Shown in pieces: positions 4,942 through 63,046 of a stretch of 64,000 nucleotides of DNA. A model generated the notes under the pieces. That model had not been told where the DNA came from. It ran no database searches and saw only the letters and a list, made by a program, of their open reading frames with translations. Position numbers and translations under genes: made by a program. Origin of the DNA: an uncultured Clostridia bacterium (GTDB lineage: Bacteria > Bacillota > Clostridia > TANB77 > UBA1234); NCBI GenBank assembly GCA_934169745.1, contig CAKPOE010000001.1, positions 200,856 through 264,855 of the forward strand, given 5' to 3'. The stretch's first letter is position 1. Each line of letters opens with the position of its first letter.

Positions 4942-6189
4942 ATGGAACAACCATTGGCATATAGAATGTCGCCAGAGACGTTGGATGAATATGTGGGACA
5001 AGAACATATAATATCAAAAGATAAAATGTTATATAGATTGATTAAGGCGGACAGATTATCGAGCATTATTTTATGGGGACCTCCTGGCTGCGGAAAAACA
5101 TCACTTGCTAGAGTTATTGCAAAGTCTACTAAAAACAAGTTTGAAAAACTTAATGCAGTGGCAGCAGGTGTTGGTGATATAAAAAAGATAGTAGAGGAAG
5201 CTAAAAATTTGTTTATGAATCCATCTGGAAGAGTAGTACTATTTATTGATGAGATTCACAGATTTAATAAATTGCAACAAGATGCACTTCTTCCTTATGT
5301 TGAAGACGGAACAGTTATACTTATAGGAGCAACTACAGAAAATCCGTACTTTTCTGTTAATAAAGCTCTAATTTCACGTTCTACAGTTTTTATGTTGAAA
5401 CCTTTGACAGAAGAAAATGTTTATACAGTATTAAAAAATGCAATTGAAAATAAGGAAAAAGGTTTGGGCAAATATAATCTACGTGTTGAAGATGATGTAC
5501 TAAAATATATTGCTACGCTTTCTGGCGGTGATGTTAGAGTAGCGTTAAATGCCTTAGAGATTGCTGTACTTACGACTGATATGAATGCAAATGGCGAAAT
5601 AGAAATAACAAAAGAAATAGCAATGGAATGTGTACAGAAAAAAATAGCACAGTTTGATAAAAATGGAGACAGTCATTACGATAATATAAGTGCTTTTATA
5701 AAATCTATGCGTGGAGGCGATACGGACGCGGTACTATTTTATTTGGCACGAGCTTTGTATGCTGGAGAAGACCCTATGTTTTTGGCAAGACGTATAGCTA
5801 TTTGTGCTTCAGAAGATGTCGGAATGGCTAACTCAAATGCTTTAGTTGTTGCTAATGCTGCTATGCAAGCGATTCATCAAATAGGAATGCCAGAAGCAAG
5901 AATCTTGCTGGCACATGCAGCAACTTATGTGGCAAGAAGTCCAAAATCAAATGCGGCGTATTTAGGATTGGATAAGGCTCTTCATGATGTCGAGAATATG
6001 GATACAGGACTAATTCCAATGCATATAAGAAATGCTCCTGCTGAAGGAATGTCAAAAGAAGGTTATGGAGTTGGTTATAAGTATCCTCACGATTATCCAA
6101 ATCATGAAGTCGAACAACAATATTTACCAGACAAGATGGTTGGAACAAAATATTATATACCAGATGAAACAGAAGAAAAATTGAAATAA
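4942..6189 (+). CDS. rarA: replication-associated recombination protein A (RarA/MgsA AAA+ ATPase)
   Basis: 415 aa. Walker A ILWGPPGCGKTSLA, arginine finger DEIHRFNK and C-terminal MHIRNAPAEGMSKEGYGVGYKYPHDYP are RarA-specific and not RuvB-like. Confidence 0.88.
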   Translation: MEQPLAYRMSPETLDEYVGQEHIISKDKMLYRLIKADRLSSIILWGPPGCGKTSLARVIAKSTKNKFEKLNAVAAGVGDIKKIVEEAKNLFMNPSGRVVLFIDEIHRFNKLQQDALLPYVEDGTVILIGATTENPYFSVNKALISRSTVFMLKPLTEENVYTVLKNAIENKEKGLGKYNLRVEDDVLKYIATLSGGDVRVALNALEIAVLTTDMNANGEIEITKEIAMECVQKKIAQFDKNGDSHYDNISAFIKSMRGGDTDAVLFYLARALYAGEDPMFLARRIAICASEDVGMANSNALVVANAAMQAIHQIGMPEARILLAHAATYVARSPKSNAAYLGLDKALHDVENMDTGLIPMHIRNAPAEGMSKEGYGVGYKYPHDYPNHEVEQQYLPDKMVGTKYYIPDETEEKLK

Positions 6190-6201
6190 AATTGATTAGA
6201 A

Positions 6202-6588
6202 ATGAATAAAAAGAAAAATACACTTCATAATATATATGAGGTGTATTTTTTGATTTATGCTATTGGTTTAATTGGGGGCTTACTTGGTGGCATGTTTGGT
6301 GCTGGTAGCGGATTAATAATTTTGCCAGCCATGATAAAGTTTTTAAAAGTTGATGAATATAAGGCTAGAGGGACAACTTTAGCTGTTGTACTTATAATTA
6401 CTGTAGCAAGTGCGTTTATGTATTATAAAAATAATTTTTTTGATTTTAGCATTGCGACATATATAATTATAGGAGGAATAATTGGTGGATATTTAGGTGC
6501 AAAAATAATGAGAAAAATATCAAAATTTTGGCTATCAATATTTTTTTATGCATTTATGATTTTTGTAGGATTTAGAATGATATTATAA
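6202..6588 (+). CDS. TauE/SafE (DUF81) family membrane protein, N-terminal half-length unit
   Basis: 128 aa, ~4 TM helices, G-rich motif GGLLGGMFGAGSGLIILP typical of TauE repeat 1. Confidence 0.6.
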   Translation: MNKKKNTLHNIYEVYFLIYAIGLIGGLLGGMFGAGSGLIILPAMIKFLKVDEYKARGTTLAVVLIITVASAFMYYKNNFFDFSIATYIIIGGIIGGYLGAKIMRKISKFWLSIFFYAFMIFVGFRMIL

Positions 6589-6602
6589 AGTGAGAGATAA
6601 TT

Positions 6603-6965
6603 ATGTTTTTGATTTTGACAGGTGTAGTGTCAGGAATAATTTCTGGACTTGGAATGGGTGGAGGTACCATTTTAATAATCATATTAACTAATATTTTGAA
6701 TTATGAACAGCATATAGCTCAAGCTAGTAACATATTATTCTTTATACCAACATCACTTATGGCTATTTGGGTGCATTTTAAGCAAAATGATATTGATAAA
6801 AGTTTGATTTTAAAATTAGCAATTCCTGGCGTTATTGGAGGAATTATTGGTTCATATGTGTCTGGGATTATAGAGGCAAATAATTTAAAAAAATTTTTTG
6901 GAGTTTTTCTGCTAATTGTTGGAACGTATGAAATAATAACAACTGTAAAAAATAGAAGTAGATAG
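6603..6965 (+). CDS. TauE/SafE (DUF81) family membrane protein, C-terminal half-length unit
   Basis: 120 aa, ~4 TM helices, GLGMGGGTILIIIL motif typical of TauE repeat 2. Its own RBS gagag. Different frame from the upstream half. Confidence 0.6.
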   Translation: MFLILTGVVSGIISGLGMGGGTILIIILTNILNYEQHIAQASNILFFIPTSLMAIWVHFKQNDIDKSLILKLAIPGVIGGIIGSYVSGIIEANNLKKFFGVFLLIVGTYEIITTVKNRSR

Positions 6966-7034
6966 TATTAAATATTTTATGAAAAATTGTAGCGGAGCAC
7001 AGTGAGCTCCAGCAATTCAAAGGAGGAAAATAAA

Positions 7035-7178
7035 ATGAAGAATTTAGTTACTGGTATGTTTATTGGAGCATTACTTGGCGGTATGGTTGGAACTGTTGCA
7101 AGTGATGAAATATATGATATGAGTAGAAAGATTGTGAAAAACAGCAAAAAAATGATGAAAAAGCATAATTGGATGTAA
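7035..7178 (+). CDS. small glycine-zipper membrane peptide (47 aa), below ORF-track cutoff
   Basis: MKNLVTGMFIGALLGGMVGTVASDEIYDMSRKIVKNSKKMMKKHNWM*. Strong RBS AGGAGGAAAATAAAATG. GxxxG-type TM helix plus basic tail. Hairpin ggagcacagtgagctcc upstream. Confidence 0.5.
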   Translation: MKNLVTGMFIGALLGGMVGTVASDEIYDMSRKIVKNSKKMMKKHNWM

Positions 7179-7264
7179 TAATTTGTTAATTATGGGCTGC
7201 CTTTGGCAGCAAATACATAAAATAATCATTGATATTTGAAAATATAAATGTTATCATAATATTC

Positions 7265-7795
7265 AAGTGGTGTGCTATTCTAGTTATTGCTATGGATTGC
7301 GAGGGCGGGCCTAAAAATCCGCTGAAAGGGCATATCGATGAAGTTCTTTAGTCTGGCTCGCGACGCCCAGTCGAGGGTCTTTCTAGGGAGTAAGGTTTAA
7401 GGGCGATCTGCAACGGCATGTAGGCGTTGACCCTTCTACCGTGGAGACATATAGTATTTTGTACTATATGATAAACCTGCAAGGCCAATACTATAGTATC
7501 TGGTACACAGCGTAGCCTTCCTTGAGTGGTGGTGGCGAATAGAAATTGAAACCATTACTGCAAAAGAGGATAAACAATCATTTTAGCAATGTCAAGGAAA
7601 ACTTCTAGAGCATTCTTATAAAGAGATGTTTTGAGGATTGAGGTGTGGACTAAGTGGTAATCCAGGCTCTCTAACGGTAACGTGGAGATGCTACTTTTAA
7701 AGGGAAACCACTGAGATGGCGATATCTTAGTAAGTAGTAGGGAAATCCTTCTGGACCTAAGCCGCAAAATTTACTCATTACATTACCACTTATTA
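7265..7795 (+). ncRNA. candidate OLE (ornate large extremophilic) RNA
   Basis: ~530 nt with no credible ORF. GC content is far above the local ~30%, with many nested GC helices (e.g. gcgagggcgggcc, ggctcgcgacgcccagtcgagg). Putative sigma-A promoter TTGATA-17-TATCAT at ~7230-7262. A small 4-TM membrane protein (OapA-like) lies immediately downstream and spoIIIA is nearby, matching the known OLE neighbourhood. RNase P and tmRNA motifs are absent. Confidence 0.45.
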
Positions 7796-7814
7796 ATTTT
7801 AAAGGTGAGTGAAA

Positions 7815-8354
7815 ATGTCAAATAAAAATGAATCGGATAGTCAGCATAAATGGTTAATAAAAATATTTTTTATAACCTTTATACTGTCTTTAATTTTTAA
7901 CTCTTTATCAACAGAGTTTGTAGAAAATTTAAATATTATATGGTCAATATTAATCTTAGTATTAGTAATTTTAACAGGTATAGTATCTGACTTGATTGCA
8001 ACCGCCGTGACTGCTGCGGATGAAACACCATTTCATGCAAAAGCCGCAGACAAAAAGAAAGGAGCTAAACAGTCAGTAAAGCTTGTAAGAAATGCAGATA
8101 AAGTTTCAAACGTATGTGGTGACGTTGTTGGAGATATTTGTGGAATACTTAGTGGAGCAACTAGTGCACTTATTTCTGTTAATATATCAGCTGCATTAGG
8201 CATGAATGATATAACTATTGTTACAATGCTTGTAACTGCCATAGTAACTTCTCTTACCGTTCTTGGAAAAGGATTTGGTAAACACTTGGGAATTACTAGA
8301 GCAGATGAGATTGTAACTATATTGGGTAAAGTGATTTCTATTTTTTCAAAGTAA
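7815..8354 (+). CDS. OapA-like small polytopic membrane protein (OLE-associated protein candidate)
   Basis: ~180 aa, 4 predicted TM helices, conserved acidic patches (DLIATAVTAADETPFHAKAAD, CGDVVGDICG). Positioned directly 3' of the structured RNA. Confidence 0.45.
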   Translation: MSNKNESDSQHKWLIKIFFITFILSLIFNSLSTEFVENLNIIWSILILVLVILTGIVSDLIATAVTAADETPFHAKAADKKKGAKQSVKLVRNADKVSNVCGDVVGDICGILSGATSALISVNISAALGMNDITIVTMLVTAIVTSLTVLGKGFGKHLGITRADEIVTILGKVISIFSK

Positions 8355-8409
8355 TACATAAAATCATCCTTTGTTGTCAATAATAGTAATATAAATTGAC
8401 ATATAAAGG

Positions 8410-9090
8410 GTGATTTTTTTGTATAGAAAAATAATAATTTTTGGTTTGATTTTAATTAATATTTTGGCAGTGTCTTTGATTGCTTTTACGAATCACAATG
8501 AAGTCAAGGAAGTTGTATCAAAATTTGGTTCCAGTGGCAATGAAGTTAAACAAATACAAACTAAATTAAAGAATTGGGGATATTATAGTGGCGATATAGA
8601 TGGAATCTATGGCAGTAGAACAACAAGTGCAGTGAAGAAATTTCAAAAAAGTAATGGACTTACTGTTGATGGAATTGCTGGTACAGCTACATTAAAAGCT
8701 ATGGGTATATCTTCGAGTTCTTCTGCTACAAGTAACAATCAATCAAATTTAAACTTGTTAGCAAGAGCTATTTATGGAGAAGCAAGAGGCGAACCATATG
8801 AGGGAATGGTTGCTGTTGCAGCGGTTATACTAAACAGAGTTAGAAGTTCAAATTTTCCTAGTAGTGTAGCTGGTGTAATATATCAACCAGGAGCGTTTAC
8901 AGCGGTTGATGATGGACAGATAAATTTGAAACCAAATCAAACTGCATATAGAGCGGCACAAGACGCACTAAATGGTTGGGATCCAAGCGGAGGAGCATTA
9001 TACTACTTTAATCCAAATACAGCAACAAATAAATGGATATGGTCACGCCCATTAACAGTAGTAATCGGAAAACATAGATTTTGCAAATAA
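8410..9090 (+). CDS. sleB: spore cortex-lytic enzyme SleB (PG-binding domain + SleB/CwlJ hydrolase domain)
   Basis: N-terminal signal/TM, PG_binding_1 motif (GIYGSRTTSAVKKFQKSNGLTVDGIAG), Hydrolase_2 motif (LLARAIYGEARGEPYEGMVAVAAVILNRV). Start is ambiguous (GTG 8410 or TTG 8419). Confidence 0.85.
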   Translation: MIFLYRKIIIFGLILINILAVSLIAFTNHNEVKEVVSKFGSSGNEVKQIQTKLKNWGYYSGDIDGIYGSRTTSAVKKFQKSNGLTVDGIAGTATLKAMGISSSSSATSNNQSNLNLLARAIYGEARGEPYEGMVAVAAVILNRVRSSNFPSSVAGVIYQPGAFTAVDDGQINLKPNQTAYRAAQDALNGWDPSGGALYYFNPNTATNKWIWSRPLTVVIGKHRFCK

Positions 9091-9229
9091 ATTATTGTAG
9101 GGTCATTAGTGACCCTACAGTTAATGCTTTTTCATATGATAAATCTTTAATTTTCAGTTTTCTTGTCGATGAGTTTTTGTTCTATTTTTGAATATTTTTT
9201 CATATATATGTATTAGAGGTGATTGGAGT

Positions 9230-10139
9230 ATGTATGAAAAAATTTTTTCTGAAATTCTTTCTTTTTTTCCACCTTCTTTAAATGATATTTTGAATGTTGA
9301 CAAATGTATATGGAACTTTGCTGAGGAACTTCGTATAAGAATTGGACAAGCTATTTCTATAAAATTACACGGTAGAGAAGTACGTCTTGACAATATAGTT
9401 AAACGGTAATGATATAATGAGGCTTCTCGAAAATTTTTCTAACAATTCTATTTACTCAGTACAGTCAGAAATTAACAACGGCTTTATTACAATAAAGGGT
9501 GGGCATAGGATTGGTATAGCAGGCACTTGCATTATAGAAAATGGAATTGTTAAGAACATAAAAAATATTTCTAGTTTAAATGTAAGGATTGCTAGAGAAG
9601 TGAAAGGGTGTAGCAATTTTATAATGGATTACATATTAAATGATAATACTTTTTCTAATACAATAATTATTTCGCCGCCAGGGTGTGGTAAAACAACTAT
9701 GCTCAGAGATATGATTAGGTGCCTAAGCGATGGATATAAAGACTTTCAAGGAAAGAATGTTGGTGTTGTTGACGAACGCTCAGAAATTGCAGCAATGTAT
9801 AAAGGAGTGCCACAAAATGATGTTGGAAAAAGAACGGATGTAATGAATAATTGTTTGAAACATATTGGGATAAGCATGCTTGTGAGAAGTATGGGGCCAC
9901 AAGTTATTGCGACTGATGAAGTTGGCGGAGAAAGAGATGAGGAAGCAATATATAATGCAATGTATTCGGGAGTGAAATTTTTGTTTACTGCTCATGGCGA
10001 GAAAATTGAGGATATTTCTAAAAATTTTATAAACGATAAAGTGTTTTCAAATATTATTATTTTAAAAAATAGTAATAAACCAGGTAGTGTAAAAAATATC
10101 TATAGATTGAAGGAGGAAAAATATGTTGCTTGTTATTAA
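9230..10139 (+). pseudogene. spoIIIAA: stage III sporulation protein AA (SpoIIIAA ATPase) interrupted by a +1 frameshift at ~9401
   Basis: The N-terminal part (EELRIRIGQ...REVRLDNIV, frame 2) terminates at 9409. The remainder (from ...NGNDIMRLLENFSNNSIYS..GGHRIGIAG..Walker A PPGCGKTTMLRD, frame 0) begins at 9402. Removing one A from the run gttAAAcgg at 9401-9403 restores a full-length SpoIIIAA colinear with B. subtilis. Confidence 0.8.
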
Positions 10140-10650
10140 ATTTTCAATATTGCTTGGAATATTGTGTGCTTCTACTTTAGTTGGGTATCTTATTTCAAAC
10201 AGATATTCAGGGAGAGTGAAGGAGCTCCAAGATATTATTACATCATTAGAACTATTTGAAACAAAAATAAATTATACGTATGATACAATCCCAGATTGTT
10301 TTAAGGCTATATCAGAATATATAGGCGGTTGTATTGGAAAAATTTTCAAAGAAACAGCTTCATGCTTGGAAAAACAAAATGATGTTTCAACAGGCGATTG
10401 CTTTAAAAATGTACTTGATAATGAACGTGTTCTTCTGAATTTAAATGATACAGATATAGAAATATTAAAAGGTCTCTCGGTTTCGTTAGGACAAATCGAT
10501 TTGGATAGTCAAATAAAAAATATTAGATTGGTTATACATACATTGAACTCACAACTAGAACAAGCAAAAGAAGAAAAATCAAAAAATTTCAAATTATATA
10601 GAAACATGGGAGTGTTAGCAGGTTTGGTTTTAATGATTGTTTTGATTTAG
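10123..10650 (+). CDS. spoIIIAB: stage III sporulation protein AB
   Basis: 175 aa, N-terminal TM, SpoIIIAB-like sequence, conserved operon position. Confidence 0.8.
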   Translation: MLLVIKFSILLGILCASTLVGYLISNRYSGRVKELQDIITSLELFETKINYTYDTIPDCFKAISEYIGGCIGKIFKETASCLEKQNDVSTGDCFKNVLDNERVLLNLNDTDIEILKGLSVSLGQIDLDSQIKNIRLVIHTLNSQLEQAKEEKSKNFKLYRNMGVLAGLVLMIVLI

Positions 10651-10660
10651 GAGGAGAAGT

Positions 10661-10855
10661 ATGGAAGTTCAATTACTTTTCAAAATAGCTGCCATTGGAA
10701 TATTAGTGGCAGTTTTGCATCAAGTACTAGTAAAGGCTGGCAGAGAGGATCAAGCGATGATGACTACTTTGACAGGTCTTGTTATTGTTCTTGCAATGGT
10801 TGTGAAAGAAATCAGTAATCTTTTTAATACTGTAAAGACTTTATTTAATCTTTAA
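10661..10855 (+). CDS. spoIIIAC: stage III sporulation protein AC
   Basis: 64 aa, 2-TM protein, operon position. Confidence 0.8.
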   Translation: MEVQLLFKIAAIGILVAVLHQVLVKAGREDQAMMTTLTGLVIVLAMVVKEISNLFNTVKTLFNL

Positions 10856-10866
10856 AAGGAGTACAT

Positions 10867-11253
10867 ATGGAAATTGTAAAAATAATTGGCGTTGCTTTCA
10901 TAGCAACGTTTATAATTGTTTTATTAAAACAGTACAAGCCTGAATTTGTAATACACGTTTCTATATTGGCGGGAATTATAATATTTGGAATGGTTGTATT
11001 TAAACTATCATCAATAATAGAGCTATTACAATCTCTTTCAAATAAACTTGGCGTAAATTCAAAGTTTTTTATGATACTTATAAAAATTACAGGGATAGCT
11101 TACTTGTCAGAGTTTGCTGTTAATGTCTGCAAAGATTCCGGAGAAACGGCAATAGCCTCTAAGGTTGAAGTGGCTGCTAAAATAATAATAATAGGAATGT
11201 CTATTCCGATAGTTGCAGCATTGTTGGAAACAATAATTAACATTTTGCCATAA
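10867..11253 (+). CDS. spoIIIAD: stage III sporulation protein AD
   Basis: 128 aa, 4-TM protein, operon position. Confidence 0.8.
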   Translation: MEIVKIIGVAFIATFIIVLLKQYKPEFVIHVSILAGIIIFGMVVFKLSSIIELLQSLSNKLGVNSKFFMILIKITGIAYLSEFAVNVCKDSGETAIASKVEVAAKIIIIGMSIPIVAALLETIINILP

Positions 11254-11264
11254 ATTGTGAGGGA

Positions 11265-12383
11265 GTGATATTTATTAAGAAACTTTTTTTAATCACGATA
11301 ATATTCCTTCTCTTATTTAATCAAACTTACGCGGTTGATCTAACAGAGTTTACTTCGGAAATAAAAAAATATAGTAATGAATATTTTCCGGAACTAAGTG
11401 ATGATAATTTGCTAACAGCAATGTCTAGTGCAAGTAATAGTTTGAATACAGAGACTTTTATAAAAAGAATTTTGGGTAGCATAACAAAAGAATTTAGAAA
11501 CAATATTTCACTTATATTTAAAGTTATAGGTATAGCTATTTTGTGTAGTATATTGAAAAACATTCAATCAAACTTAGGGGAGTCAGGAATAAGTGAAATA
11601 GCTTTTTATGTTTGTTACATACTAATTGTGGTTTTAATTATGACATCATTTACTAATATAATAAATGTTTGTAAATCAACTATAGTAAAGCTAAGTGACT
11701 TTATGAAAGTATTGATTCCAGTAGTTATAAGTTTAATGTTAGTTACAGGAAATATAGCAACAGTAGCTGTTGTGGAACCAATATTGTTATCAATGATTTC
11801 AGTAATTACAGCATTACTTTCTAATTTTGTAATACCTGCGATTTTTATATCAACTATTATAAACATTATTAGTAATATGTCAGAACATGTTAATGTAAAA
11901 AAGATTGGCGAAACACTTAGAAAATGTTCGCTTTGGTGTATGGAAATTGCTTTAATAATATTTGTGGGTGTCCTGTCGTTAGAAGGAACGTTATCTGCAA
12001 ATGTTGATGGAATAACGGCAAAAACTGCAAAAGCGGTGGTATCTAGTGCTGTACCTGTTGTTGGAAAACTTTTAGGAGATACAGTAGATAGTGTTATAGG
12101 AGGAATGACGATTACCAAAAATGCTTTGGGAACAGTTGGGGTAATTGTGGTTGTGGCGATTACAATTCTCCCTCTTATAAAAACTCTAATACTAATGTTT
12201 ACCTTCAATGTTGCATCAGCACTAGTGGAGCCGATAGCCGATGGAAGAATTGTAAAGTGTATGTCCGGAATAGGTGACTCTATAAAAATCTTGTTCGCTA
12301 TTATGGCTACGATTACTTTTCTTTTTATTATTGCAATAACACTTATAATTAAAGTTACTAATTTTTCGATTATGTATAGATAA
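11265..12383 (+). CDS. spoIIIAE: stage III sporulation protein AE
   Basis: 372 aa, signal peptide plus polytopic membrane domain, GTG start with RBS GAGGGAG. Confidence 0.8.
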   Translation: MIFIKKLFLITIIFLLLFNQTYAVDLTEFTSEIKKYSNEYFPELSDDNLLTAMSSASNSLNTETFIKRILGSITKEFRNNISLIFKVIGIAILCSILKNIQSNLGESGISEIAFYVCYILIVVLIMTSFTNIINVCKSTIVKLSDFMKVLIPVVISLMLVTGNIATVAVVEPILLSMISVITALLSNFVIPAIFISTIINIISNMSEHVNVKKIGETLRKCSLWCMEIALIIFVGVLSLEGTLSANVDGITAKTAKAVVSSAVPVVGKLLGDTVDSVIGGMTITKNALGTVGVIVVVAITILPLIKTLILMFTFNVASALVEPIADGRIVKCMSGIGDSIKILFAIMATITFLFIIAITLIIKVTNFSIMYR

Positions 12384-12394
12384 AAGGAGGTTCT

Positions 12395-12937
12395 ATGAAT
12401 CAGTTTGCCATGTCACTGGTGTCAAGTGTTGTCGCAATCACCCTTATTGAAATGATACTGCCTAGTAATAAAATAAAAAAATATGTAGTTTTTGTTTCAT
12501 CAATTGTATTGGTAATTGTTGTGATTAATCCGATAACAGCTATTTTAAATAAAAATATAGATATTGAAAGCATTTTAAAAGATAACGAAACATTTATTTT
12601 AAATAGTGAATATAAAAATAAAATGCAATATGCAAAAGAAAAAGATATGCAAGACACATATAATACATTTTTGAAAGATGACATTATTAGTAGAATGAAA
12701 GAAAATGGATATTTAGTGAGAAATATCTCGGTAAAAGTAGATAATAAAACATATGAGGTGACGGAAATGGAATTAGAAATTGAACATGATGATGGAAGTA
12801 TACAAAATGTTGTAATCGATGTTTCAGTTAGCGAGAATGGCAAAACAGAGAATGTAGAAGTTCCTAAAATAAAAGATTTACTCTGTGAAACATATGGCGT
12901 TGAGAAAAGCAATATTATAATAAATAAAATTAGTTAG
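12395..12937 (+). CDS. spoIIIAF: stage III sporulation protein AF
   Basis: 180 aa, 2 N-terminal TM helices plus soluble domain, operon position. Confidence 0.75.
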   Translation: MNQFAMSLVSSVVAITLIEMILPSNKIKKYVVFVSSIVLVIVVINPITAILNKNIDIESILKDNETFILNSEYKNKMQYAKEKDMQDTYNTFLKDDIISRMKENGYLVRNISVKVDNKTYEVTEMELEIEHDDGSIQNVVIDVSVSENGKTENVEVPKIKDLLCETYGVEKSNIIINKIS

Positions 12938-12947
12938 GAGGCTAACT

Positions 12948-13509
12948 ATGAATAAGCTGATAGAAAAATTTGGTTTTGGTAATCAAAAAAGATTAATTGA
13001 AAATATAGTAATATTTATAATACTACTTGTCATACTTATGATAGTGATAAATGGTTTTGGAACAGTTGAGGAAAAAAGTGAAACTATTCCAACAGCCATA
13101 ATTAATGAAAACAAAAAAACAGATGATTTAGAGGAAAAGTTAGAAAAGATACTTAGCATGATTGACGGAGTGCGGAAAAGCAAATGTAATGATATCGTAT
13201 GCTTCTACAATCACAGAAGTTCCACTTTATGATACAAAGGAAAACGTGACAGTTACTGAGGAAAAAGATAAAGAAGGTGGTACAAGGAAAACAGAACAAA
13301 CAAGCAAAGAAAAAAGCGTTATATTTGAGGAAAATAATAATTCAAAATCTCTTGCTATAAAAGAAAAAGAAATGCCTAAAATCGTTGGCGTAATTGTTGT
13401 TGCAGACGGTGCGGGTAACATTAAGGTGAAAGAATGTATAATAAATGCTGTTTCGGCTGTGGTTGATGTACCTTCGCACCGAATACAAGTATTTTCAAAA
13501 CAAAAATAA
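12948..13509 (+). pseudogene. spoIIIAG: stage III sporulation protein AG (SpoIIIAG ring protein) interrupted by a +1 frameshift at ~13176-13179
   Basis: The N-terminal TM part is in frame 0 to ...SMIDGVRK. The C-terminal ring domain (ANVMISYASTITEV...KEGGTRK...GVIVVADGAGNIKVKECIINAVSAVVDVPSHRIQVF) is in frame 1. Deleting one A from ggAAAAg (13176-13179) fuses them into a protein colinear with B. subtilis SpoIIIAG. Confidence 0.8.
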
Positions 13510-13522
13510 TGGAGGTATTTAT

Positions 13523-14092
13523 ATGGGAGGAATTACATTTAAGGTTATAAAGAAAAATCAAATTTTGATTGTAGCAGTTTCGTTAATGCTTGTCGTTGCT
13601 GGATACTTGAACTATCAATATGATCCTAATTCTGTATATGATGTTGAACTAACAGGGATAATTGAAGATCCAGGAGACGCAATATATGTAAGTACTCCAA
13701 ACGTCGAAACCAACATTGATGCTTTAGAAGTTTCAAGCAATTCTGTTGAAGACTATTTTATACAAAGTAAGATAGAAAGAACAAACGCATATGCCGAACA
13801 AGTTGAAATATATGAAAAAATGATTGAAAATCCAAGTGTTGCTGAAGAACAGAAAAATATAGCACAGGAGCAAATAAGAAAAATAAATAGCGAAAGGGAT
13901 GCAATAATAATATCGGAAAATTTGATAAAACTTAAAGGGTATGAAAATATTTTGGTTATGGTAAATGATAATAGCATAAATGTAGTGATACAGGAAAAAG
14001 AATTAACAAGTAAACAAATAGCTCAAATCCAAAATATAGTAATGCATGAATTCGATACAGATGTTGAGAAAATACATATAACAGTAAAATAA
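13523..14092 (+). CDS. spoIIIAH: stage III sporulation protein AH
   Basis: Start MGGITFKV with RBS GGAGG. N-terminal TM. C-terminal ...LIKLKGYENILVMVNDNSINVVIQ... matches SpoIIIAH (YscJ/FliF-like domain). Confidence 0.8.
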   Translation: MGGITFKVIKKNQILIVAVSLMLVVAGYLNYQYDPNSVYDVELTGIIEDPGDAIYVSTPNVETNIDALEVSSNSVEDYFIQSKIERTNAYAEQVEIYEKMIENPSVAEEQKNIAQEQIRKINSERDAIIISENLIKLKGYENILVMVNDNSINVVIQEKELTSKQIAQIQNIVMHEFDTDVEKIHITVK

Positions 14093-23573: not shown

Positions 23574-23647
23574 AGGGGTGTAGTTCATCGGTAGAATAAG
23601 AGTCTCCAAAACTCCAGAGGAGGGTTCGATTCCTTCCACCCCTGCCA
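23574..23647 (+). tRNA. tRNA-Trp (anticodon CCA)
   Basis: AGGGGTGTAGTTCATCGGTAGAAT...CTCCAAA...GGGTTCGATTCCTTCCACCCCTGCCA. Cloverleaf folds with a 7-bp acceptor, TPsiC arm GGTTCGATTCC and encoded CCA. It closely resembles Firmicute tRNA-Trp. Terminator hairpin at 23650-23682. Confidence 0.85.
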
Positions 23648-46185: not shown

Positions 46186-46424
46186 GTAAAGACGTTGAGC
46201 AAGAGGAGTAGATTTTTGAGGCTTGATAGAGAGGAAAAGTCGTTGGCTGAAAGCTTTTCTTAAGTTAGAAAATTGAACGTAGCTTGTGAGTCTCAATACT
46301 GAACTAAGAGTAAGTGTTGACGTATGCATGCGTTAAATGTGCTAAGGCAATGATTTTAAATCATTGTAAATTAAGGTGGTACCACGACAGACTCGTCCTT
46401 TGGATTGATGTCTGTCTTTTTTAT
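46186..46424 (+). promoter_or_regulatory. T-box riboswitch leader (valine specifier GUC) with terminator
   Basis: AGAGAGG box, specifier region gaaaaGUCg, T-box sequence aattaaGGTGGTACCacg (46369-46386), terminator gacagac...gtctgtc+TTTTTT (46386-46424). Sits upstream of valS. Confidence 0.8.
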
Positions 46425-46638: not shown

Positions 46639-49260
46639 ATGAACTTATTAGCAAAAAATTATGAACCTAAAGATTTTGAGGACAGAATTTATAAGAATTG
46701 GTGTGAAAAAAGATATTTTGAGGCTAATCCAAGAAGCGAAAAGCCTAAATTTAGTATTGTTATGCCACCACCAAACATAACTGGCGTACTTCACATGGGA
46801 CATGGAATGGATAACACATTACAGGATATAATCGTTAGATATAAGAGAATGCAGGGGTTTGAAACATTATGGGTTCCTGGAATAGATCACGCAAGTATCG
46901 CAACAGAGGCAAAGATTGTTGAACAGATGAAAAAAGAAGGCATTACTAAAGAGCAGATTGGTAGAGAAGAGTTCTTGAAACGTGCTTGGGCTTGGAAAGA
47001 AAAGTATGGAAATACAATATTAACCCAGCTTAGAAAAATGGGTGTTTCATGTGATTGGTCTAGAGTTAGTTTCACAATGGATGAGAATTTGACAAGGGCT
47101 GTAAAGAAGGTATTTGTTGACCTATATAATAAAGGACTAATATATAAAGGCGAAAGAATGATTAACTGGTGTCCAACTTGTAAGACTTCTATTTCTGATG
47201 CAGAAGTTGAATACGAGGAAGAAGCTGGACATTTGTGGCATATAAGATATGTAACTCCAGATGGAAAAGATGAGATAATAGTTGCTACAACAAGACCTGA
47301 GACAATGCTTGGAGATACAGCTATTGCAGTACATCCAGATGATGAAAGATATACACATTTAGTTGGAAAAACAGTAATACTTCCAATTATGAATAAAGAA
47401 ATTCCTGTAGTTGCAGACACATATGTTGAAAAAGATTTTGGTACAGGTGCTGTTAAAATTACACCAGCACATGATCCTAATGACTTCGAGGTAGGACTAA
47501 GACATAATTTAGAAGTTATAAAAGTATTTACTGAAGATGGAAAGATGAATAGTTTGGTACCTAAGTATGAGGGTATGGATAGATTTGAGGCAAGAAAAGC
47601 TATAGTAGAAGATTTGGAAAAACTAGGCGTTCTTGTAAAAACGGAAAACTATACTCACAATGTAGGAAAATGTTATCGCTGTCATCAAACAGTAGAACCA
47701 GCCGTTTCTAAGCAATGGTTTGTAAAAATGGAGCCATTGGCTAAACCAGCAAATGAAGCAGTAAGAAATGGTGAAACAAAATTTGTTCCTGAGAGATTCG
47801 ATAAGATATATTTCTCTTGGATGGATAACGTAAAAGATTGGTGTATTTCTAGACAGCTTTGGTGGGGACACAGGATTCCTGCATATTATTGTGATGCTTG
47901 TGGAGATGTAATTGTTAGTGAACGCGATGAGACAACGTGCCCAAAATGTGGAGGAGCCTTACGACAAGATCCAGACACTTTAGATACTTGGTTTAGTTCT
48001 GCATTGTGGCCATTTGCAACATTGGGTTGGCCGAATGAAACTGAAGAACTTAAAAAGTTTTTCCCAACAGATGTTTTGGTAACAGGTTATGATATTATAT
48101 TTTTCTGGGTTGCAAGAATGATATTCTCAAGTATAGAGAATATGGGAGAAGTACCATTTAAAGATGTATTAATTCATGGGCTAGTAAGAGATGCACAGGG
48201 AAGAAAAATGTCAAAATCATTGGGAAATGGTGTAGATCCATTAGAAGTAATAGATAAATATGGTGCGGATTCTTTCAGATTTGCATTGGTACATGGAACA
48301 TCTGCAGGAAATGATATGCGTTATTCCGATGAAAAAATAGAAGCAGGAAGAAACTTTGCAAACAAACTTTGGAATGCTTCAAGATTTGTACTTATGAATT
48401 TAGGCGAGGAGAAACTTGAAGATGTTAAACCAGAGTATACAATCGAAGACAAATGGATTATTTCAAAAGCTAACAAAGCAATTAAAGAAGTGACAGAGGC
48501 GATGGACAAATATGATTTCGGAATTGCACTTCAAAAAATAATGGAATTTACAAGAGATGAATTTTGTGATTGGTATATAGAAATGGTAAAACCAAGATTG
48601 TATGATATGACGAATGAAACAAGACCAACAGCGTTAATTGTATTAAATGGAATATTAACAGTTGCTTTGAGATTGTTACATCCATTTATGCCATTTATAA
48701 CAGAAGAAATATATACAAAATTAATTACTGAGTCTGAGAGCATAATGATTGCAGAGTGGCCTAAATACACGGAATTGGCTAACTTTGAATTAGAAGAAAA
48801 TGAAATCGAAACAGTAAAAGAAATAATCAAGGGTGTAAGAAATTTAAGAGTAAATATGAATGTTGCACCATCGAAAAAGGCAAGTATGATTTTTGTTACT
48901 GAAAAGAAGGATGTAATTGAGGCAGGAAGAAGCTTCATAGAGAAATTGGCCGGAGCAGAAAATATTACAATTCAAGATAATAAAAATGGAATACCAGAAA
49001 ATGCGGTATCTCTTGCTGTGCCAGGTATAGAAATATACATACCATTTAATGAATTAGTTGATATTGGTGCTGAACTAGAAAGATTAGAAAAAGAAAAACT
49101 AACATACGAAAATGAGATTAAGAGAGTAGAAAAAATGTTATCAAATGAAGGCTTTATTTCTAAAGCTCCTGCAGCTAAAATAGAAGAGGAAAAGAATAAA
49201 AAAGCGAAATACGAAGAATTACTTGCAAAAACAGAAGAAAGAATTAACAATCTAAAGTAG
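46639..49260 (+). CDS. valS: valine--tRNA ligase
   Basis: 873 aa; HMGH and KMSKS motifs, C-terminal coiled coil. Terminator at 49265-49296. Confidence 0.95.
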   Translation: MNLLAKNYEPKDFEDRIYKNWCEKRYFEANPRSEKPKFSIVMPPPNITGVLHMGHGMDNTLQDIIVRYKRMQGFETLWVPGIDHASIATEAKIVEQMKKEGITKEQIGREEFLKRAWAWKEKYGNTILTQLRKMGVSCDWSRVSFTMDENLTRAVKKVFVDLYNKGLIYKGERMINWCPTCKTSISDAEVEYEEEAGHLWHIRYVTPDGKDEIIVATTRPETMLGDTAIAVHPDDERYTHLVGKTVILPIMNKEIPVVADTYVEKDFGTGAVKITPAHDPNDFEVGLRHNLEVIKVFTEDGKMNSLVPKYEGMDRFEARKAIVEDLEKLGVLVKTENYTHNVGKCYRCHQTVEPAVSKQWFVKMEPLAKPANEAVRNGETKFVPERFDKIYFSWMDNVKDWCISRQLWWGHRIPAYYCDACGDVIVSERDETTCPKCGGALRQDPDTLDTWFSSALWPFATLGWPNETEELKKFFPTDVLVTGYDIIFFWVARMIFSSIENMGEVPFKDVLIHGLVRDAQGRKMSKSLGNGVDPLEVIDKYGADSFRFALVHGTSAGNDMRYSDEKIEAGRNFANKLWNASRFVLMNLGEEKLEDVKPEYTIEDKWIISKANKAIKEVTEAMDKYDFGIALQKIMEFTRDEFCDWYIEMVKPRLYDMTNETRPTALIVLNGILTVALRLLHPFMPFITEEIYTKLITESESIMIAEWPKYTELANFELEENEIETVKEIIKGVRNLRVNMNVAPSKKASMIFVTEKKDVIEAGRSFIEKLAGAENITIQDNKNGIPENAVSLAVPGIEIYIPFNELVDIGAELERLEKEKLTYENEIKRVEKMLSNEGFISKAPAAKIEEEKNKKAKYEELLAKTEERINNLK

Positions 49261-62970: not shown

Positions 62971-63046
<76 letters not shown>

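What the first reader, a model, noticed from the sequence alone, without database searches (positions are those of the whole stretch)
7190..8354. Large GC-rich structured non-coding region upstream of a 4-TM membrane protein: candidate OLE RNA/OapA pair
About 530 nt (7265-7795) has no credible ORF. It is markedly more GC-rich than its surroundings, is densely populated with complementary GC segments, and is preceded by a sigma-A-like promoter (TTGATA-17-TATCAT). The next gene encodes a ~180-aa polytopic membrane protein with conserved Asp-rich patches. OLE RNA (~600 nt) is restricted to anaerobic/extremophilic Firmicutes and is always followed by oapA; the locus lies near spoIIIA as in other Firmicutes. 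No RNase P (GGAAAGUCC/ACAGAA...GGCUUA) or tmRNA (tag ORF, ...CUCCACCA 3' end) signatures are present. If it is not OLE, it is an unusually large novel structured RNA.
Basis: partly seen in the sequence, partly recalled or inferred. Interest (0 to 1): 0.7.

Follow-up and report, generated by a model that had tools for sequence, protein, structure and literature searches.

The report
Compact OLE RNA with its OapA partner
The GC-rich non-coding stretch is a genuine OLE RNA, a known large membrane-associated bacterial RNA, followed by the gene for its membrane-protein partner OapA; it is a shortened form typical of uncultured gut Clostridia, so this is a correct re-identification and not a discovery.

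Summary
Window 7265-7791 (+) is an OLE RNA: Rfam RF01071 scores 426.6 bits against a gathering score of 50, E 6e-122, with the full model matched. No other RNA family scores here, even at E<=10. The next gene (7815-8354) is oapA. It is 37% identical (E 9e-28) to a published OapA, has an invariant DxxxD motif and four long hydrophobic helices, and its predicted fold matches only CorB/CorC CNNM transmembrane domains. Homologues have OLE immediately upstream in 46 of 47 testable genomes. In 14 sequences of the same clade, 69 of 155 base pairs show compensatory changes. A TG-extended sigma-A promoter ends 7 nt before helix P1, and a similar one sits at that position in most clade members. What is particular is size. 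The 527-nt RNA has a short P7 and a truncated P9 that lacks the GGCC kissing loop, one of the dimer contacts seen by cryo-EM. The protein-site motifs I checked (OapA palindromes, k-turn strands, OapB P13) are kept. This resembles the published "variant 1" of uncultured gut Clostridia. The family is known, so interest is low. Mechanism is inferred from Halalkalibacterium halodurans and Clostridium work.

The parts
7229..7257 (+). Sigma-A-type promoter of ole-oapA. The -35 is TTGATA (7229-7234), the spacer is 17 nt, and the TG-extended -10 is TGtTATCAT (7249-7257). The predicted transcription start is about 7263-7266, at the first base of P1.
   Evidence: 10 of 12 consensus matches, TG present; a comparable -35/TG-extended -10 pair ending 5-11 nt before P1 in most of the 14 clade members. 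Promoter function itself is inferred and was not shown.
7265..7791 (+). OLE RNA, from the 5' strand of P1 to the 3' strand of P1: 527 nt, 43% G+C. The Rfam match, which includes flanks, is 7251-7805.
   Evidence: RF01071, 426.6 bits, E 6e-122, model 1-616. (the only significant family). (covariation). (z -2.82). (99.1% identical in conspecific assemblies, against about 97% for the region).
7265..7299 (+). 5' strands of P1 (7265-7271), P2 (7279-7283, UCUAG), P3 (7287-7292) and P3.1 (7295-7299). Their partners are 7785-7791, 7605-7609, 7584-7589 and 7575-7579. P3 plus P3.1 gives 11 bp, the stem proposed in the literature to cross the membrane.
   Evidence: all pairs canonical; helices 1, 3 and 4 have 3, 4 and 3 pairs with changes on both sides; P2 is invariant. 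These helices are not in the Rfam model, so this evidence is independent of the model. The membrane-crossing role is the published hypothesis (PMC12265935).
7304..7323 (+). P4 hairpin with the A-rich loop CCUAAAAA (7310-7317). This loop forms dimer bridge B1 (A-A pairs) in the cryo-EM structures.
   Evidence: alignment. (the CUAAAAAUC core of the loop region is invariant in 14 sequences). helix 5 (3 compensatory pairs). Role taken from PMC12286853 and PMC12265935.
7334..7339 (+). Palindrome AUCGAU in the P4a region. The second palindrome, UCUAGA (7604-7609), lies at P2. These are the regions where OapA binding was mapped in H. halodurans.
   Evidence: Sequence. Invariant in the clade. Binding-site assignment from PMC12265935, which cites Block et al. 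2011. Binding was not tested here.
7344..7447 (+). P5/P5.1 (7344-7390, loop GCCCA at 7365-7369), P6/P6.1 (7394-7440, loop ACGGCA at 7412-7417) and J6/7 CCGUGGAGA (7439-7447). The L5.1 GCC and L6.1 GGC are complementary (kissing-loop bridge). J4a/5 GAUGAAG plus J6/7 are the k-turn strands bound by OapC.
   Evidence: Roles from PMC9723947, PMC12286853 and PMC12265935.
7448..7470 (+). P7, reduced to a perfect 9-bp hairpin with a UUUUG loop. The segment between the flanking junction motifs is 25 nt, the shortest in the set.
   Evidence: The same segment is 76-109 nt in most high-scoring OLEs and 47-48 nt in L034 and C. acetobutylicum (my count of the sequence). helix 9: 7 of 9 pairs compensatory.
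7477..7510 (+). P8 hairpin. The segment between the junction motifs is 32 nt, about the same as in full-length OLEs.
   Evidence: helix 10. The differences from the conspecific assemblies at 7493-7494 fall in its loop.
7519..7570 (+). Truncated P9. The basal stems and the conserved GGCGAAUA/UUGAAACC internal loop are kept. The distal P9.2-P9.3 arm and its palindromic GGCC kissing loop (dimer bridge B3) are absent. The segment is 40 nt, against 84-85 nt.
   Evidence: 50 model positions replaced by 4 nt. (every one of the 22 high-scoring OLEs measured has the 84-85-nt P9 with CUGGCCGG at its tip; none of the 14 clade members does). Role of the loop from PMC12286853.
7594..7784 (+). Domain 2: the P10 hairpin (7594-7604) and the P11-P15 region. 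P12.2 is 7661-7666 with 7750-7755. P13 is 7668-7688, with bulged A7673 and the GNRA loop GUAA at 7677-7680, which together make the OapB site. P14 is 7689-7696 with 7732-7739. P14.1 is 7710-7731 with a GCGA loop.
   Evidence: helices 16, 19 and 20 (9, 7 and 7 compensatory pairs). The P13 and P14.1 segment lengths are the same as in full-length OLEs. OapB-site definition from PMC7936274.
7801..7809 (+). Ribosome-binding site AAAGGUGAG of oapA, 10 nt after the 3' end of OLE. No terminator lies between OLE and oapA.
   Evidence: Sequence. (no terminator-like site in 6800-8700).
7815..8354 (+). oapA, 179 aa from ATG 7815 (an in-frame GTG at 7809 would give 181 aa). Long hydrophobic helices are predicted at about residues 4-38, 41-67, 94-128 and 134-161. 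A basic segment spans K76-K96. The DxxxD motif is D103/D107.
   Evidence: plus the synteny.

Best explanation
This is an ole-oapA transcription unit.

A sigma-A promoter (7229-7257) starts transcription at the first base of helix P1. It produces a 527-nt OLE RNA (7265-7791) on the same transcript as oapA (7815-8354). Whether the RNA is later cut free is unknown.

The RNA folds into the family's multi-helix architecture. Domain 1 is P3-P9 and domain 2 is P1-P2 plus P10-P15. The OapA protein is a four-helix membrane protein distantly related to the transmembrane domain of CNNM/CorB/MpfA Mg2+ transporters. It binds the RNA at the palindromic P2 and P4a regions and tethers it to the cell membrane.

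By analogy with Halalkalibacterium halodurans, the resulting ribonucleoprotein helps the cell adapt to stress. The most likely way is by modulating OapA-dependent divalent-cation handling. The known stresses are excess Mg2+, cold, short-chain alcohols and poor carbon sources.

This copy is a naturally reduced form. P7 is a 9-bp hairpin, and P9 lacks the distal arm with the palindromic kissing loop. If the RNA dimerizes, it must rely on the retained P4 A-rich loop and the complementary P5.1 and P6.1 loops.

Shown here: family membership of the RNA and of the protein, the conserved structure, the conserved gene pairing, the recurring promoter position, and the missing P9 arm.

Inferred from the literature: RNA-protein binding, membrane localization, dimerization and stress function.
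For: RNA:
- RF01071 scores 426.6 bits, E 6e-122, full length, and is the only family with a meaningful score.
- In alignment A1 (window plus 13 relatives), 90.5% of cells pair, against 38-48% when partners are slid. 69 of 155 pairs change on both sides. 0 of 500 shuffles reach the observed values. This includes P1, P3 and P3.1, which the Rfam model does not contain.
- In two independent conspecific assemblies OLE is 99.1% identical, while the surrounding 3.5 kb is 96.7-97.3% identical. The three stem substitutions all preserve pairing, and the rest fall in the P8 loop.

Protein:
- BLASTP to the OapA sequence in Supplementary Table 4 of PMC12286853 gives 37% identity over 163 aa, E 9e-28, with DxxxD aligned. 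It is the only match to that OapA in the window.
- D103 and D107 are invariant in 50 homologues.
- The AlphaFold2 model has mean pLDDT 81. Its six best PDB matches are all CorB/CorC CNNM transmembrane domains at probability 0.98-1.00, and every other match is 0.18 or lower.
- Pfam CNNM gives 30.9 bits against a cut-off of 28.4. This is the weak CNNM similarity reported for OapA (PMC11332333).

Pairing:
- OLE lies directly 5' of the oapA homologue on the same strand in 46 of 47 loci that have upstream DNA.

Transcription:
- The promoter position recurs across the clade.
- No terminator lies between OLE and oapA.

Function (literature): PMC12265935, PMC11332333, PMC9723947, PMC7936274, PMC10898510 and PMC12286853.
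Against: - There are no expression data for this organism. The transcription start, co-transcription, processing and abundance are all inferred.
- The biochemical function of OLE is unknown even in the model organism.
- The stress phenotypes come from an alkaliphilic Bacillus-like species, whereas the nearest relatives here are uncultured gut and rumen Clostridia MAGs.
- The loss of the P9 kissing loop, and of any conserved P7 loop, means the dimer geometry seen in C. acetobutylicum may not apply here.
- OapB, OapC and bS21 genes are not in the 64-kb window, so the protein complement of the particle is unknown.
- The Foldseek E-values for the CNNM matches are weak (0.026-0.66), even though the probabilities are high and the matches are specific.
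Confidence: 0.95

Rival explanations
1. The structured RNA acts mainly in cis, as a very long 5' leader (riboswitch-like or attenuator-like) that controls oapA translation or transcription, and not as a free-standing RNA component of a particle.
For: - The dedicated promoter sits right at P1.
- No terminator follows OLE.
- Only 23 nt separate the 3' strand of P1 from the oapA ATG, and the RBS begins 10 nt after P1.
- L002 has a GC-rich hairpin, and L011 a GC-rich hairpin followed by a U-run, between OLE and oapA. These could attenuate read-through.
Against: - In H. halodurans, OLE accumulates as one of the most abundant RNAs, binds OapA protein and localizes to the membrane (PMC12265935).
- About 25 conserved helices and the retained OapB, OapC-k-turn and OapA-site motifs are far more than a leader needs.
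- The two readings do not exclude each other.
Confidence: 0.1
2. The locus is a decaying relic: a non-functional, shrinking OLE in a reduced genome, kept only by linkage to oapA.
For: - It is the shortest OLE in the set.
- It lacks the P9 arm that is conserved in every full-length OLE examined.
- The literature reports rare defective ole genes and links the short variants to reduced gut genomes (PMC11332333).
- Two neighbouring sporulation genes carry frameshifts.
Against: - Compensatory changes maintain the helices across the clade, including the shortened P7 (7 of 9 pairs).
- OLE is more conserved than the flanking coding DNA between strains, and its stem substitutions preserve pairing.
- The OapA ORF is intact with invariant key residues.
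- The promoter position recurs across the clade.
- The defective ole genes reported in the literature occur in organisms that lack oapA (PMC11332333).
Confidence: 0.03
3. The region belongs to another class of large RNA (RNase P RNA, tmRNA, a group II intron remnant) or encodes small proteins.
For: Only its size, its GC excess and the presence of mechanical ORFs of 40-70 aa.
Against: - No such family reaches the gathering score in the window, or even E<=10 in 7000-8500.
- The pattern of substitution is that of base-paired RNA.
Confidence: 0.01

Closest known systems
OLE RNA, full-length form (Rfam RF01071; H. halodurans, C. acetobutylicum, C. botulinum)
   Same: - The whole-model match covers P4-P6, P8 and P10-P15.
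- The A-rich L4 loop is kept.
- The complementary L5.1 and L6.1 loops are kept.
- The k-turn strands are kept.
- The AUCGAU and UCUAGA palindromes are kept.
- The P13 GNRA loop with its 1-nt bulge, and the P14.1 GCGA loop, are kept.
- P1, P2, P3 and P3.1 close the structure.
- oapA lies immediately downstream.

   Different: - It is 527 nt, against 577 nt in C. acetobutylicum and about 610-680 nt for the matches in other genomes.
- The P7 segment is 25 nt, against 47-109 nt.
- The P9 segment is 40 nt, against 84-85 nt, and lacks the P9.2-P9.3 arm and the GGCC kissing loop, which is dimer bridge B3.
- It has a dedicated promoter at P1. In H. halodurans the RNA lies inside a long polycistronic transcript (PMC12265935).
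OLE 'variant 1' of Fernando and Breaker 2024 (commonest in the TANB77 clade of uncultured gut Clostridia)
   Same: - P7 and P9 are shorter.
- The Rfam score lies in an intermediate cluster, between the full-length OLEs and a P7/P8-less form.
- The nearest relatives are uncultured human-gut and ruminant Clostridia MAGs.
- Most highly conserved nucleotides are retained.
   Different: - P8 is not shorter (32 nt against 26-32 nt).
- The OapB site at the tip of P13, which variant 1 'often' lacks, is intact here.
- The published class is defined by bit-score cut-offs (310-390) on the authors' own model, and I could not run that model. GTDB placement in TANB77 could not be checked either.
OapA (H. 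halodurans BH2780 / WP_010898928.1 and orthologues)
   Same: - 37% identity, E 9e-28, to a published OapA.
- About 180 aa with four long hydrophobic helices.
- DxxxD at 103/107, against D100/D104 in H. halodurans.
- A basic segment between the second and third helices.
- A weak CNNM Pfam hit and a CorB-like predicted fold.
- The gene follows ole.

   Different: None of significance was found. RNA binding, dimerization and any transport activity were not tested.
MpfA/CorB/CorC (CNNM-family Mg2+ transporters)
   Same: The transmembrane-domain fold. The six best PDB matches are 7M1T, 7M1U, 7CFF and 7CFG chains, with TM-score 0.49-0.59 normalised to the query.
   Different: - It has no CBS-pair or CorC/HlyC domains.
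- It has four transmembrane helices instead of three.
- It has DxxxD.
- The Pfam CNNM score is only just above the cut-off.
- The literature proposes that OLE RNA stands in for the missing cytoplasmic domains (PMC12265935). That is a hypothesis.

Membership tests
OLE RNA (RF01071) | Scores above the curated covariance-model threshold over the full model | tested here: met
   426.6 bits against a gathering score of 50, E 6e-122, model positions 1-616, not truncated.
OLE RNA (RF01071) | Conserved multi-helix secondary structure supported by covariation | tested here: met
   155 pairs in 21 helices. 90.5% of cells are paired, against 38-48% in slid controls. 69 pairs change on both sides, and 0 of 500 shuffles reach the observed values. 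Caveat: the structure was projected from the Rfam alignment of the window sequence, which favours the unslid register. The counts of compensatory pairs are less affected by this.
OLE RNA (RF01071) | Blocks of highly conserved nucleotides (L4 CUAAAAAU, AUCGAUGAAG, GACGCCCAGUC, CCGUGGAGA, AAACCUG, GUAGCC, UGCAAAAGAGG, ACUAAGUGGUAAUC, GGGAAAUCCU, GGACCUAAGCC) | tested here: met
   All are present in the window and nearly invariant in the clade.
OLE RNA (RF01071) | oapA gene immediately downstream | tested here: met
   oapA starts 23 nt after P1. The same arrangement is found in 46 of 47 related loci.
OLE RNA (RF01071) | Host is an anaerobic or extremophilic member of the Bacillota | tested here: met
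   Sporulation genes (sleB, spoIIIAA-AH) are in the window. The nearest relatives are Clostridia MAGs from human gut and ruminants. The organism itself is unnamed.
OLE RNA (RF01071) | Abundant, stable transcript of about 600 nt that localizes to the membrane | not testable with these tools
   Needs RNA-seq or a Northern blot, plus localization experiments.
OLE RNA (RF01071) | All four dimerization centres of the cryo-EM structures: L4 A-A, two L5.1-L6.1 kissing contacts, and the palindromic L9.3 kissing loop | tested here: not met
   The L4, L5.1 and L6.1 motifs are present. L9.3 and the arm that carries it are absent in the window and in all 13 clade relatives, while CUGGCCGG is present at the P9 tip in every full-length OLE examined. 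This is a feature of the solved full-length representatives, not of the Rfam family definition, so it qualifies the sub-type and not family membership.
OLE 'variant 1' (Fernando and Breaker 2024) | Shorter P7, P8 and P9 than full-length OLE | tested here: inconclusive
   P7 (25 nt) and P9 (40 nt) are clearly shorter. P8 (32 nt) is not.
OLE 'variant 1' (Fernando and Breaker 2024) | Infernal bit score of 310-390 with the authors' model (Lyon et al. 2022 alignment) | not testable with these tools
   That model is not available here. With the Rfam model, the window's clade forms a separate middle cluster at 372-429 bits. The full-length OLEs score 506-555 bits, and L033 scores 245 bits.
OLE 'variant 1' (Fernando and Breaker 2024) | OapB-binding nucleotides at the tip of P13 are often missing | tested here: not met
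   P13 has the GUAA tetraloop and the single bulged A, and its segment length is the same as in full-length OLEs. The paper says 'often', so this does not exclude the class.
OapA | Sequence similarity to a characterised or named OapA | tested here: met
   37% identity over 163 aa, E 9e-28, to the OapA sequence in Supplementary Table 4 of PMC12286853. That sequence was machine-read from a PDF and may lack a few residues.
OapA | DxxxD motif (D100/D104 in H. halodurans; mutated in PM1) | tested here: met
   The motif is DVVGD at residues 103-107. Both Asp residues are invariant in 50 homologues, and the motif aligns with DVIGD of the named OapA.
OapA | About 20-kDa protein with four transmembrane helices and a basic cluster on the cytoplasmic face | tested here: met
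   Hydropathy shows four hydrophobic segments. The AlphaFold2 model has long helices at 4-38, 41-67, 94-128 and 134-161. The basic residues are K76, K80-82, K85, K89, R92 and K96. Topology was not determined.
OapA | Distant CNNM-like fold, without CBS or CorC domains | tested here: met
   Pfam CNNM gives 30.9 bits against a cut-off of 28.4. The six best Foldseek PDB matches are all CorB/CorC, at probability 0.98-1.00. The protein is only 179 aa long.
OapA | Binds OLE RNA cooperatively and brings it to the membrane | not testable with these tools
   Needs binding assays and imaging, as in Block et al. 2011 (cited in PMC12265935).

The most novel reading that the evidence does not exclude
This clade's 527-nt OLE may be a natural near-minimal version of the RNA. 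It keeps the checked motifs of the mapped protein sites (OapA palindromes, OapC k-turn strands, OapB P13) and the proposed membrane-spanning P3/P3.1 stem. It has lost the P9 'arch' with its palindromic kissing loop, and it has no conserved P7 loop. If so, the fourth dimerization centre seen by cryo-EM is dispensable for function. In that case the particle either dimerizes through L4 and L5.1/L6.1 alone or works as a monomer. The RNA would also be made as a primary transcript that starts exactly at P1, from its own promoter. That would make this clade a convenient minimal construct for structural and functional work.
Probability: 0.35. Interest if true: 0.35.

Novelty: already known. Interest (0 to 1): 0.15.

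Why it matters
OLE is one of the largest and most conserved bacterial non-coding RNAs whose biochemical function is still unknown. Recent work proposes that it spans the membrane as a dimer. This window adds no new kind of element, because standard Rfam annotation finds it and shortened gut-Clostridia variants have already been described.

Its modest value is as a well-documented example of a compact form. All the protein-binding motifs I checked and the P3/P3.1 stem are kept. The P9 arm that provides one dimer contact is missing in a whole clade, and the remaining structure shows continued selection. That bears on which parts of the cryo-EM architecture are essential.

Tried and rejected
1. 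An exact look-up of the window's 181-aa OapA in the public assemblies found nothing. The 98%-identical P0001 did give conspecific contigs.

2. A sequence search of OapA against PDB chains gave only a chance hit, to CoaBC at E 0.62. The fold comparison was needed instead.

3. NCBIfam has no model that hits OapA.

4. I tried to tie the relatives to the published 'variant 1'/TANB77 lists through the paper's supplement. The held supplement contains only figure legends and no accession numbers. The published cut-offs refer to a different covariance model.

5. PMC10898510 contains no mention of PM1 or DxxxD. The D100A/D104A definition came from PMC9723947.

6. My first motif-anchor script failed for many full-length OLEs, because it searched anchors strictly in sequence. 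It was redone with independent anchors.

7. I looked for a palindromic tetranucleotide in the terminal loop of the truncated P9. AAUU or UGCA occurs in three clade members (L002, L003, L013) and not in the window's predicted loop, so no conserved replacement kissing loop exists.

8. A search for OapC and bS21 homologues in the window found none. A 64-kb window cannot show that they are absent from the genome.

9. Rival RNA families were rejected: the permissive scan lists only chance-level eukaryotic miRNA and snoRNA models.

I used MAFFT alignment plus pair counting instead.
Full report
OBSERVATION. The region was read directly. Between the stop of a 47-aa ORF (7178) and the start of the next gene (7815) there is no credible coding sequence. 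Only mechanical ORFs of 40, 46 and 70 aa overlap it. G+C is 43.0% for 7266-7793 and 41.6% for 7251-7805, against 31.6% for the flanks and 31.9% for the window. No intrinsic terminator is predicted anywhere in 6800-8700.

WHAT THE RNA IS. A scan of the whole window against all 4,227 Rfam families gives one hit in this region: OLE (RF01071) at 7251-7805 on the + strand. It scores 426.6 bits against a gathering score of 50, E 6e-122, with model positions 1-616 and no truncation. A permissive scan of 7000-8500 (E up to 10) lists nothing else except chance-level eukaryotic miRNA and snoRNA models far below their thresholds. There is no RNase P, tmRNA or group II intron signal. The MFE of 7265-7791 is -160.6 kcal/mol, with z = -2.82 against dinucleotide shuffles.

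INDEPENDENT SUPPORT FROM RELATIVES. Homologues of the downstream protein were located in 48 species-representative genomes. OLE lies directly upstream on the same strand in 46 of them. Of the other two, L014 has no upstream DNA. L035 sits at a contig end and has only 216 nt of repetitive, non-OLE sequence upstream.

I aligned the window's OLE with the 13 from the closest relatives (alignment A1). I projected the Rfam consensus structure onto it, re-paired the P7 hairpin locally, and added helices P1, P2, P3 and P3.1, which the Rfam model leaves unpaired. On this structure 90.5% of cells form standard pairs, against 38-48% when the partners are slid by 1-3 columns. 69 of 155 pairs change on both sides, and none of 500 shuffles reaches any of the observed measures. 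P1 has 3 compensatory pairs, P3 has 4 and P3.1 has 3, so the covariation extends to helices outside the model that found the hit.

Two independent conspecific assemblies (L049, L050) carry an OLE that is 99.1% identical, while the surrounding 2.4-3.5 kb is 96.7-97.3% identical. Three of the five differences are in stems and all three preserve pairing (A-U to G-U twice, C-G to U-G once). The other two are in the P8 loop.

WHAT THE PROTEIN IS. The ORF most likely starts at ATG 7815 (179 aa), because the RBS AAAGGUGAG sits at 7801-7809. An in-frame GTG at 7809 would give 181 aa. Pfam reports only a marginal CNNM/DUF21 hit (30.9 bits against a cut-off of 28.4), and NCBIfam reports nothing. That is the behaviour published for OapA, which clusters as the next-best match to PF01595 after MpfA (PMC11332333).

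The published defining features were then tested:
- The DxxxD motif (D100/D104 in H. halodurans, the residues mutated in PM1; PMC9723947) is present as D103-V-V-G-D107. Both Asp residues are invariant in 50 homologues.
- There are four hydrophobic segments, with a basic cluster (K76-K96) between the second and third.
- An AlphaFold2 model built from the 50-sequence alignment has mean pLDDT 81 and pTM 0.67, with long helices at 4-38, 41-67, 94-128 and 134-161.
- BLASTP against the OapA sequence given in Supplementary Table 4 of PMC12286853 gives 37% identity over 163 residues, E 9e-28. CGDVVGDICG aligns with CNDVIGDISG, and PFHAKAADKKKGAKQ aligns with PFHAMASERLKGAKQ. That OapA matches nowhere else in the window.

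A sequence search of PDB gave nothing, so no OapA structure is detectable by sequence.

ANATOMY, AND WHAT IS PARTICULAR ABOUT THIS COPY. Using the conserved junction motifs as anchors (CCGUGGAGA, AAACCUG, GUAGCCU, UGCAAAAGAGG), I measured the variable arms in every OLE collected.
- The window has P7 25 nt, P8 32 nt and P9 40 nt.
- Its 13 clade relatives have P7 26-50 nt, P8 33-43 nt and P9 40-51 nt. L007 carries an unrelated 106-nt insert in P9. The P7 anchors failed for L011 and L012; one search gives 33-34 nt for them.
- The high-scoring OLEs have P7 76-109 nt (47 in L034), P8 26-32 nt and P9 84-85 nt.
- By my count of the machine-read supplement sequence, C. acetobutylicum has about 48, 26 and 84 nt.

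Every full-length P9 carries CUGGCCGG at its tip, and the MFE fold puts GGCC in the terminal loop in 20 of 22 cases. This is the palindromic L9.3 kissing loop that forms dimer bridge B3 in the cryo-EM structure and covaries among palindromes (PMC12286853). In the window, the covariance model skips 50 model positions there and inserts 4 nt. Neither the window nor any clade relative has the arm or a conserved palindromic loop. The basal P9 stems and the conserved internal loop (GGCGAAUA/UUGAAACC) remain.

The other elements I checked are in place:
- the A-rich P4 loop (7310-7317; bridge B1)
- the complementary P5.1 loop GCCCA (7365-7369) and P6.1 loop ACGGCA (7412-7417)
- the k-turn strands GAUGAAG and CCGUGGAGA (OapC site; PMC9723947, PMC12286853)
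- the palindromes AUCGAU (7334-7339) and UCUAGA (7604-7609), in the regions where OapA binding was mapped (PMC12265935)
- P13 with the GNRA loop GUAA (7677-7680) and bulged A7673, the OapB site (PMC7936274)
- P14.1 with a GCGA loop
- an 11-bp P3 plus P3.1, the stem proposed to cross the membrane (PMC12265935)

The P13 and P14.1 segment lengths are the same as in full-length OLEs.

Rfam scores fall into three clusters. L033 scores 245 bits at 490 nt. The window's clade scores 372-429 bits. The rest score 506-555 bits. This mirrors the three classes of Fernando and Breaker 2024, in which 'variant 1' has shorter P7, P8 and P9 and is commonest in TANB77, a clade of uncultured gut Clostridia (PMC11332333). 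The nearest relatives here are uncultured Clostridia MAGs from human gut, Hadza, roe deer and sheep.

I therefore regard this copy as variant-1-like, but I cannot file it formally, for three reasons. The published class is defined by bit scores from a different model. P8 is not shortened. The OapB site, which variant 1 often lacks, is intact.

TRANSCRIPTION. The -10 hexamer ends 7 nt before the first base of P1 (7265). In most of the 14 clade members, the best -35/-10 match in the 70 nt upstream is a TTGAxx or TTGxxx -35, a 16-18-nt spacer and a TG-extended -10 that ends 5-11 nt before P1. In an AT-rich genome single promoter-like matches are common; the scan found 11 against 8.6 expected. The recurring position is what gives this one weight.

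With no terminator and 23 nt between P1 and the oapA ATG, ole and oapA are most likely one transcription unit whose first nucleotide is the 5' end of the RNA. L002 has a GC-rich hairpin, and L011 a GC-rich hairpin followed by a U-run, between ole and oapA. The window has neither. In H. halodurans, by contrast, ole lies inside a long polycistronic transcript (PMC12265935). All of this is inference from sequence.

HOW IT MOST LIKELY WORKS. The steps shown here are family membership of both partners, their conserved pairing, the conserved structure and the retained binding-site motifs.

The rest is taken from the literature on H. halodurans and two Clostridium species:
- OapA binds OLE and is needed for its membrane localization.
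- Loss of the RNA or the protein causes sensitivity to cold, short-chain alcohols, Mg2+ above 2 mM and poor carbon sources.
- OapA resembles the transmembrane domain of MpfA/CorB Mg2+ transporters, and ole anticorrelates with mpfA.
- The RNA forms a homodimer in vitro. A current model has P3/P3.1 crossing the bilayer.
(PMC12265935, PMC11332333, PMC10898510, PMC12286853)

My best account is that this locus makes a membrane-tethered OLE-OapA particle that tunes divalent-cation handling and stress adaptation. In this clade it would do so with a dimer interface limited to the P4 and P5.1/P6.1 contacts. The biochemical activity of OLE is unknown in any organism.

RIVALS.
- A purely cis-acting leader of oapA is compatible with the promoter and the lack of a terminator. 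It does not explain the about 25 conserved helices or the retained protein-site motifs.
- A decaying relic is contradicted by the compensatory changes, the higher conservation than in flanking genes, the intact oapA and the recurring promoter position.
- Other RNA families and small proteins are excluded.

CONTEXT.
- Upstream lie rarA/mgsA (4942-6189), two half-size TauE/SafE genes (6202-6588, 6603-6965) and a 47-aa membrane protein (7035-7178).
- Downstream lie sleB (8410-9090) and spoIIIAA-AH (9188-14092), followed by rpsB, tsf, pyrH and frr.
- The order ole-oapA-sleB-spoIIIA is conserved in L002-L008, and sleB follows oapA in L001, L009 and L014 as well.
- Sporulation and cell-wall genes are among the published gene associations of ole (PMC12265935).

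VERDICT. The element is a known RNA family with its known partner, in a reduced form that broadly matches a published variant. Novelty: already known. Interest: low (0.15). The one point of some value is that a whole clade under evident purifying selection lacks the P9.3 kissing-loop arm.

Noticed in passing
window 9188-10139: spoIIIAA is split by a frameshift near 9395-9417: ORF 9188-9409 and ORF 9417-10139 are in different frames. Relatives L002-L006 have both parts in one frame. The same split (59 aa plus 240 aa) is called in an independent conspecific assembly (L049), so it is probably not a one-off sequencing error.
   Followed up: partly
window 12948-13509: spoIIIAG also appears frameshifted: ORFs 12948-13232 and 13162-13509 overlap in different frames. 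Removing one base near 13165-13180 (GGAGTGCGGAAAAGC) restores a typical SpoIIIAG sequence. That makes two frameshifts within one 4-kb sporulation operon, while long ORFs elsewhere (1150 aa, 873 aa) are intact. This may indicate decay of sporulation, or local sequence errors.
   Followed up: partly
window 6202-6965: Two adjacent half-size TauE/SafE-family genes. The first (128 aa) matches the C-terminal half of PF01925 and the second (120 aa) matches the N-terminal half. The pair is conserved in L002, L049 and L050, so it may be a split or heterodimeric transporter.
   Followed up: no
window 7035-7178: A 47-aa ORF with a Gly-rich hydrophobic N-terminus and a Lys-rich tail lies just upstream of the OLE promoter. 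It has no Pfam family. It is conserved only in the nearest relatives (78% in L002; also called in L049 and L050). The hairpin GCUGCC-UUU-GGCAGC (7197-7211) follows it, without a U-run.
   Followed up: no
window 46186-46403: A T-box leader (RF00230, 128.7 bits) lies upstream of an 873-aa ORF (46639-49260), presumably an aminoacyl-tRNA synthetase.
   Followed up: no
window 23574-23644 and 62971-63043: Two tRNA genes on the + strand (Rfam tRNA, 57.4 and 75.7 bits).
   Followed up: no
L002 2909-2992 and L011 2880-2983: In these relatives the ole-oapA spacer is longer (82 and 102 nt). L002 has a GC-rich hairpin there, and L011 has one followed by a U-run. These could be partial terminators that set the OLE:oapA ratio. 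The window has no such element.
   Followed up: no
L035 1-216: A Ruminiclostridium MAG has an oapA homologue (41% identity) at a contig end. The 216 nt upstream are not OLE-like and contain repeated UCUAG motifs. It is the only exception among the 47 loci with upstream DNA, and may be an assembly artefact.
   Followed up: partly
L033 2438-2927: A MAG labelled Muribaculaceae (a Bacteroidota family) carries a 490-nt OLE scoring only 245 bits next to an oapA homologue. This looks like the published P7/P8-less 'variant 2', and the taxonomic label probably reflects mis-binning.
   Followed up: no
L007 2308-2943: One clade member has a 106-nt P9 segment. The AU-rich insert is unrelated to the canonical P9.2-P9.3 arm and lacks the GGCC loop, so this arm appears to be evolutionarily plastic.
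   Followed up: no
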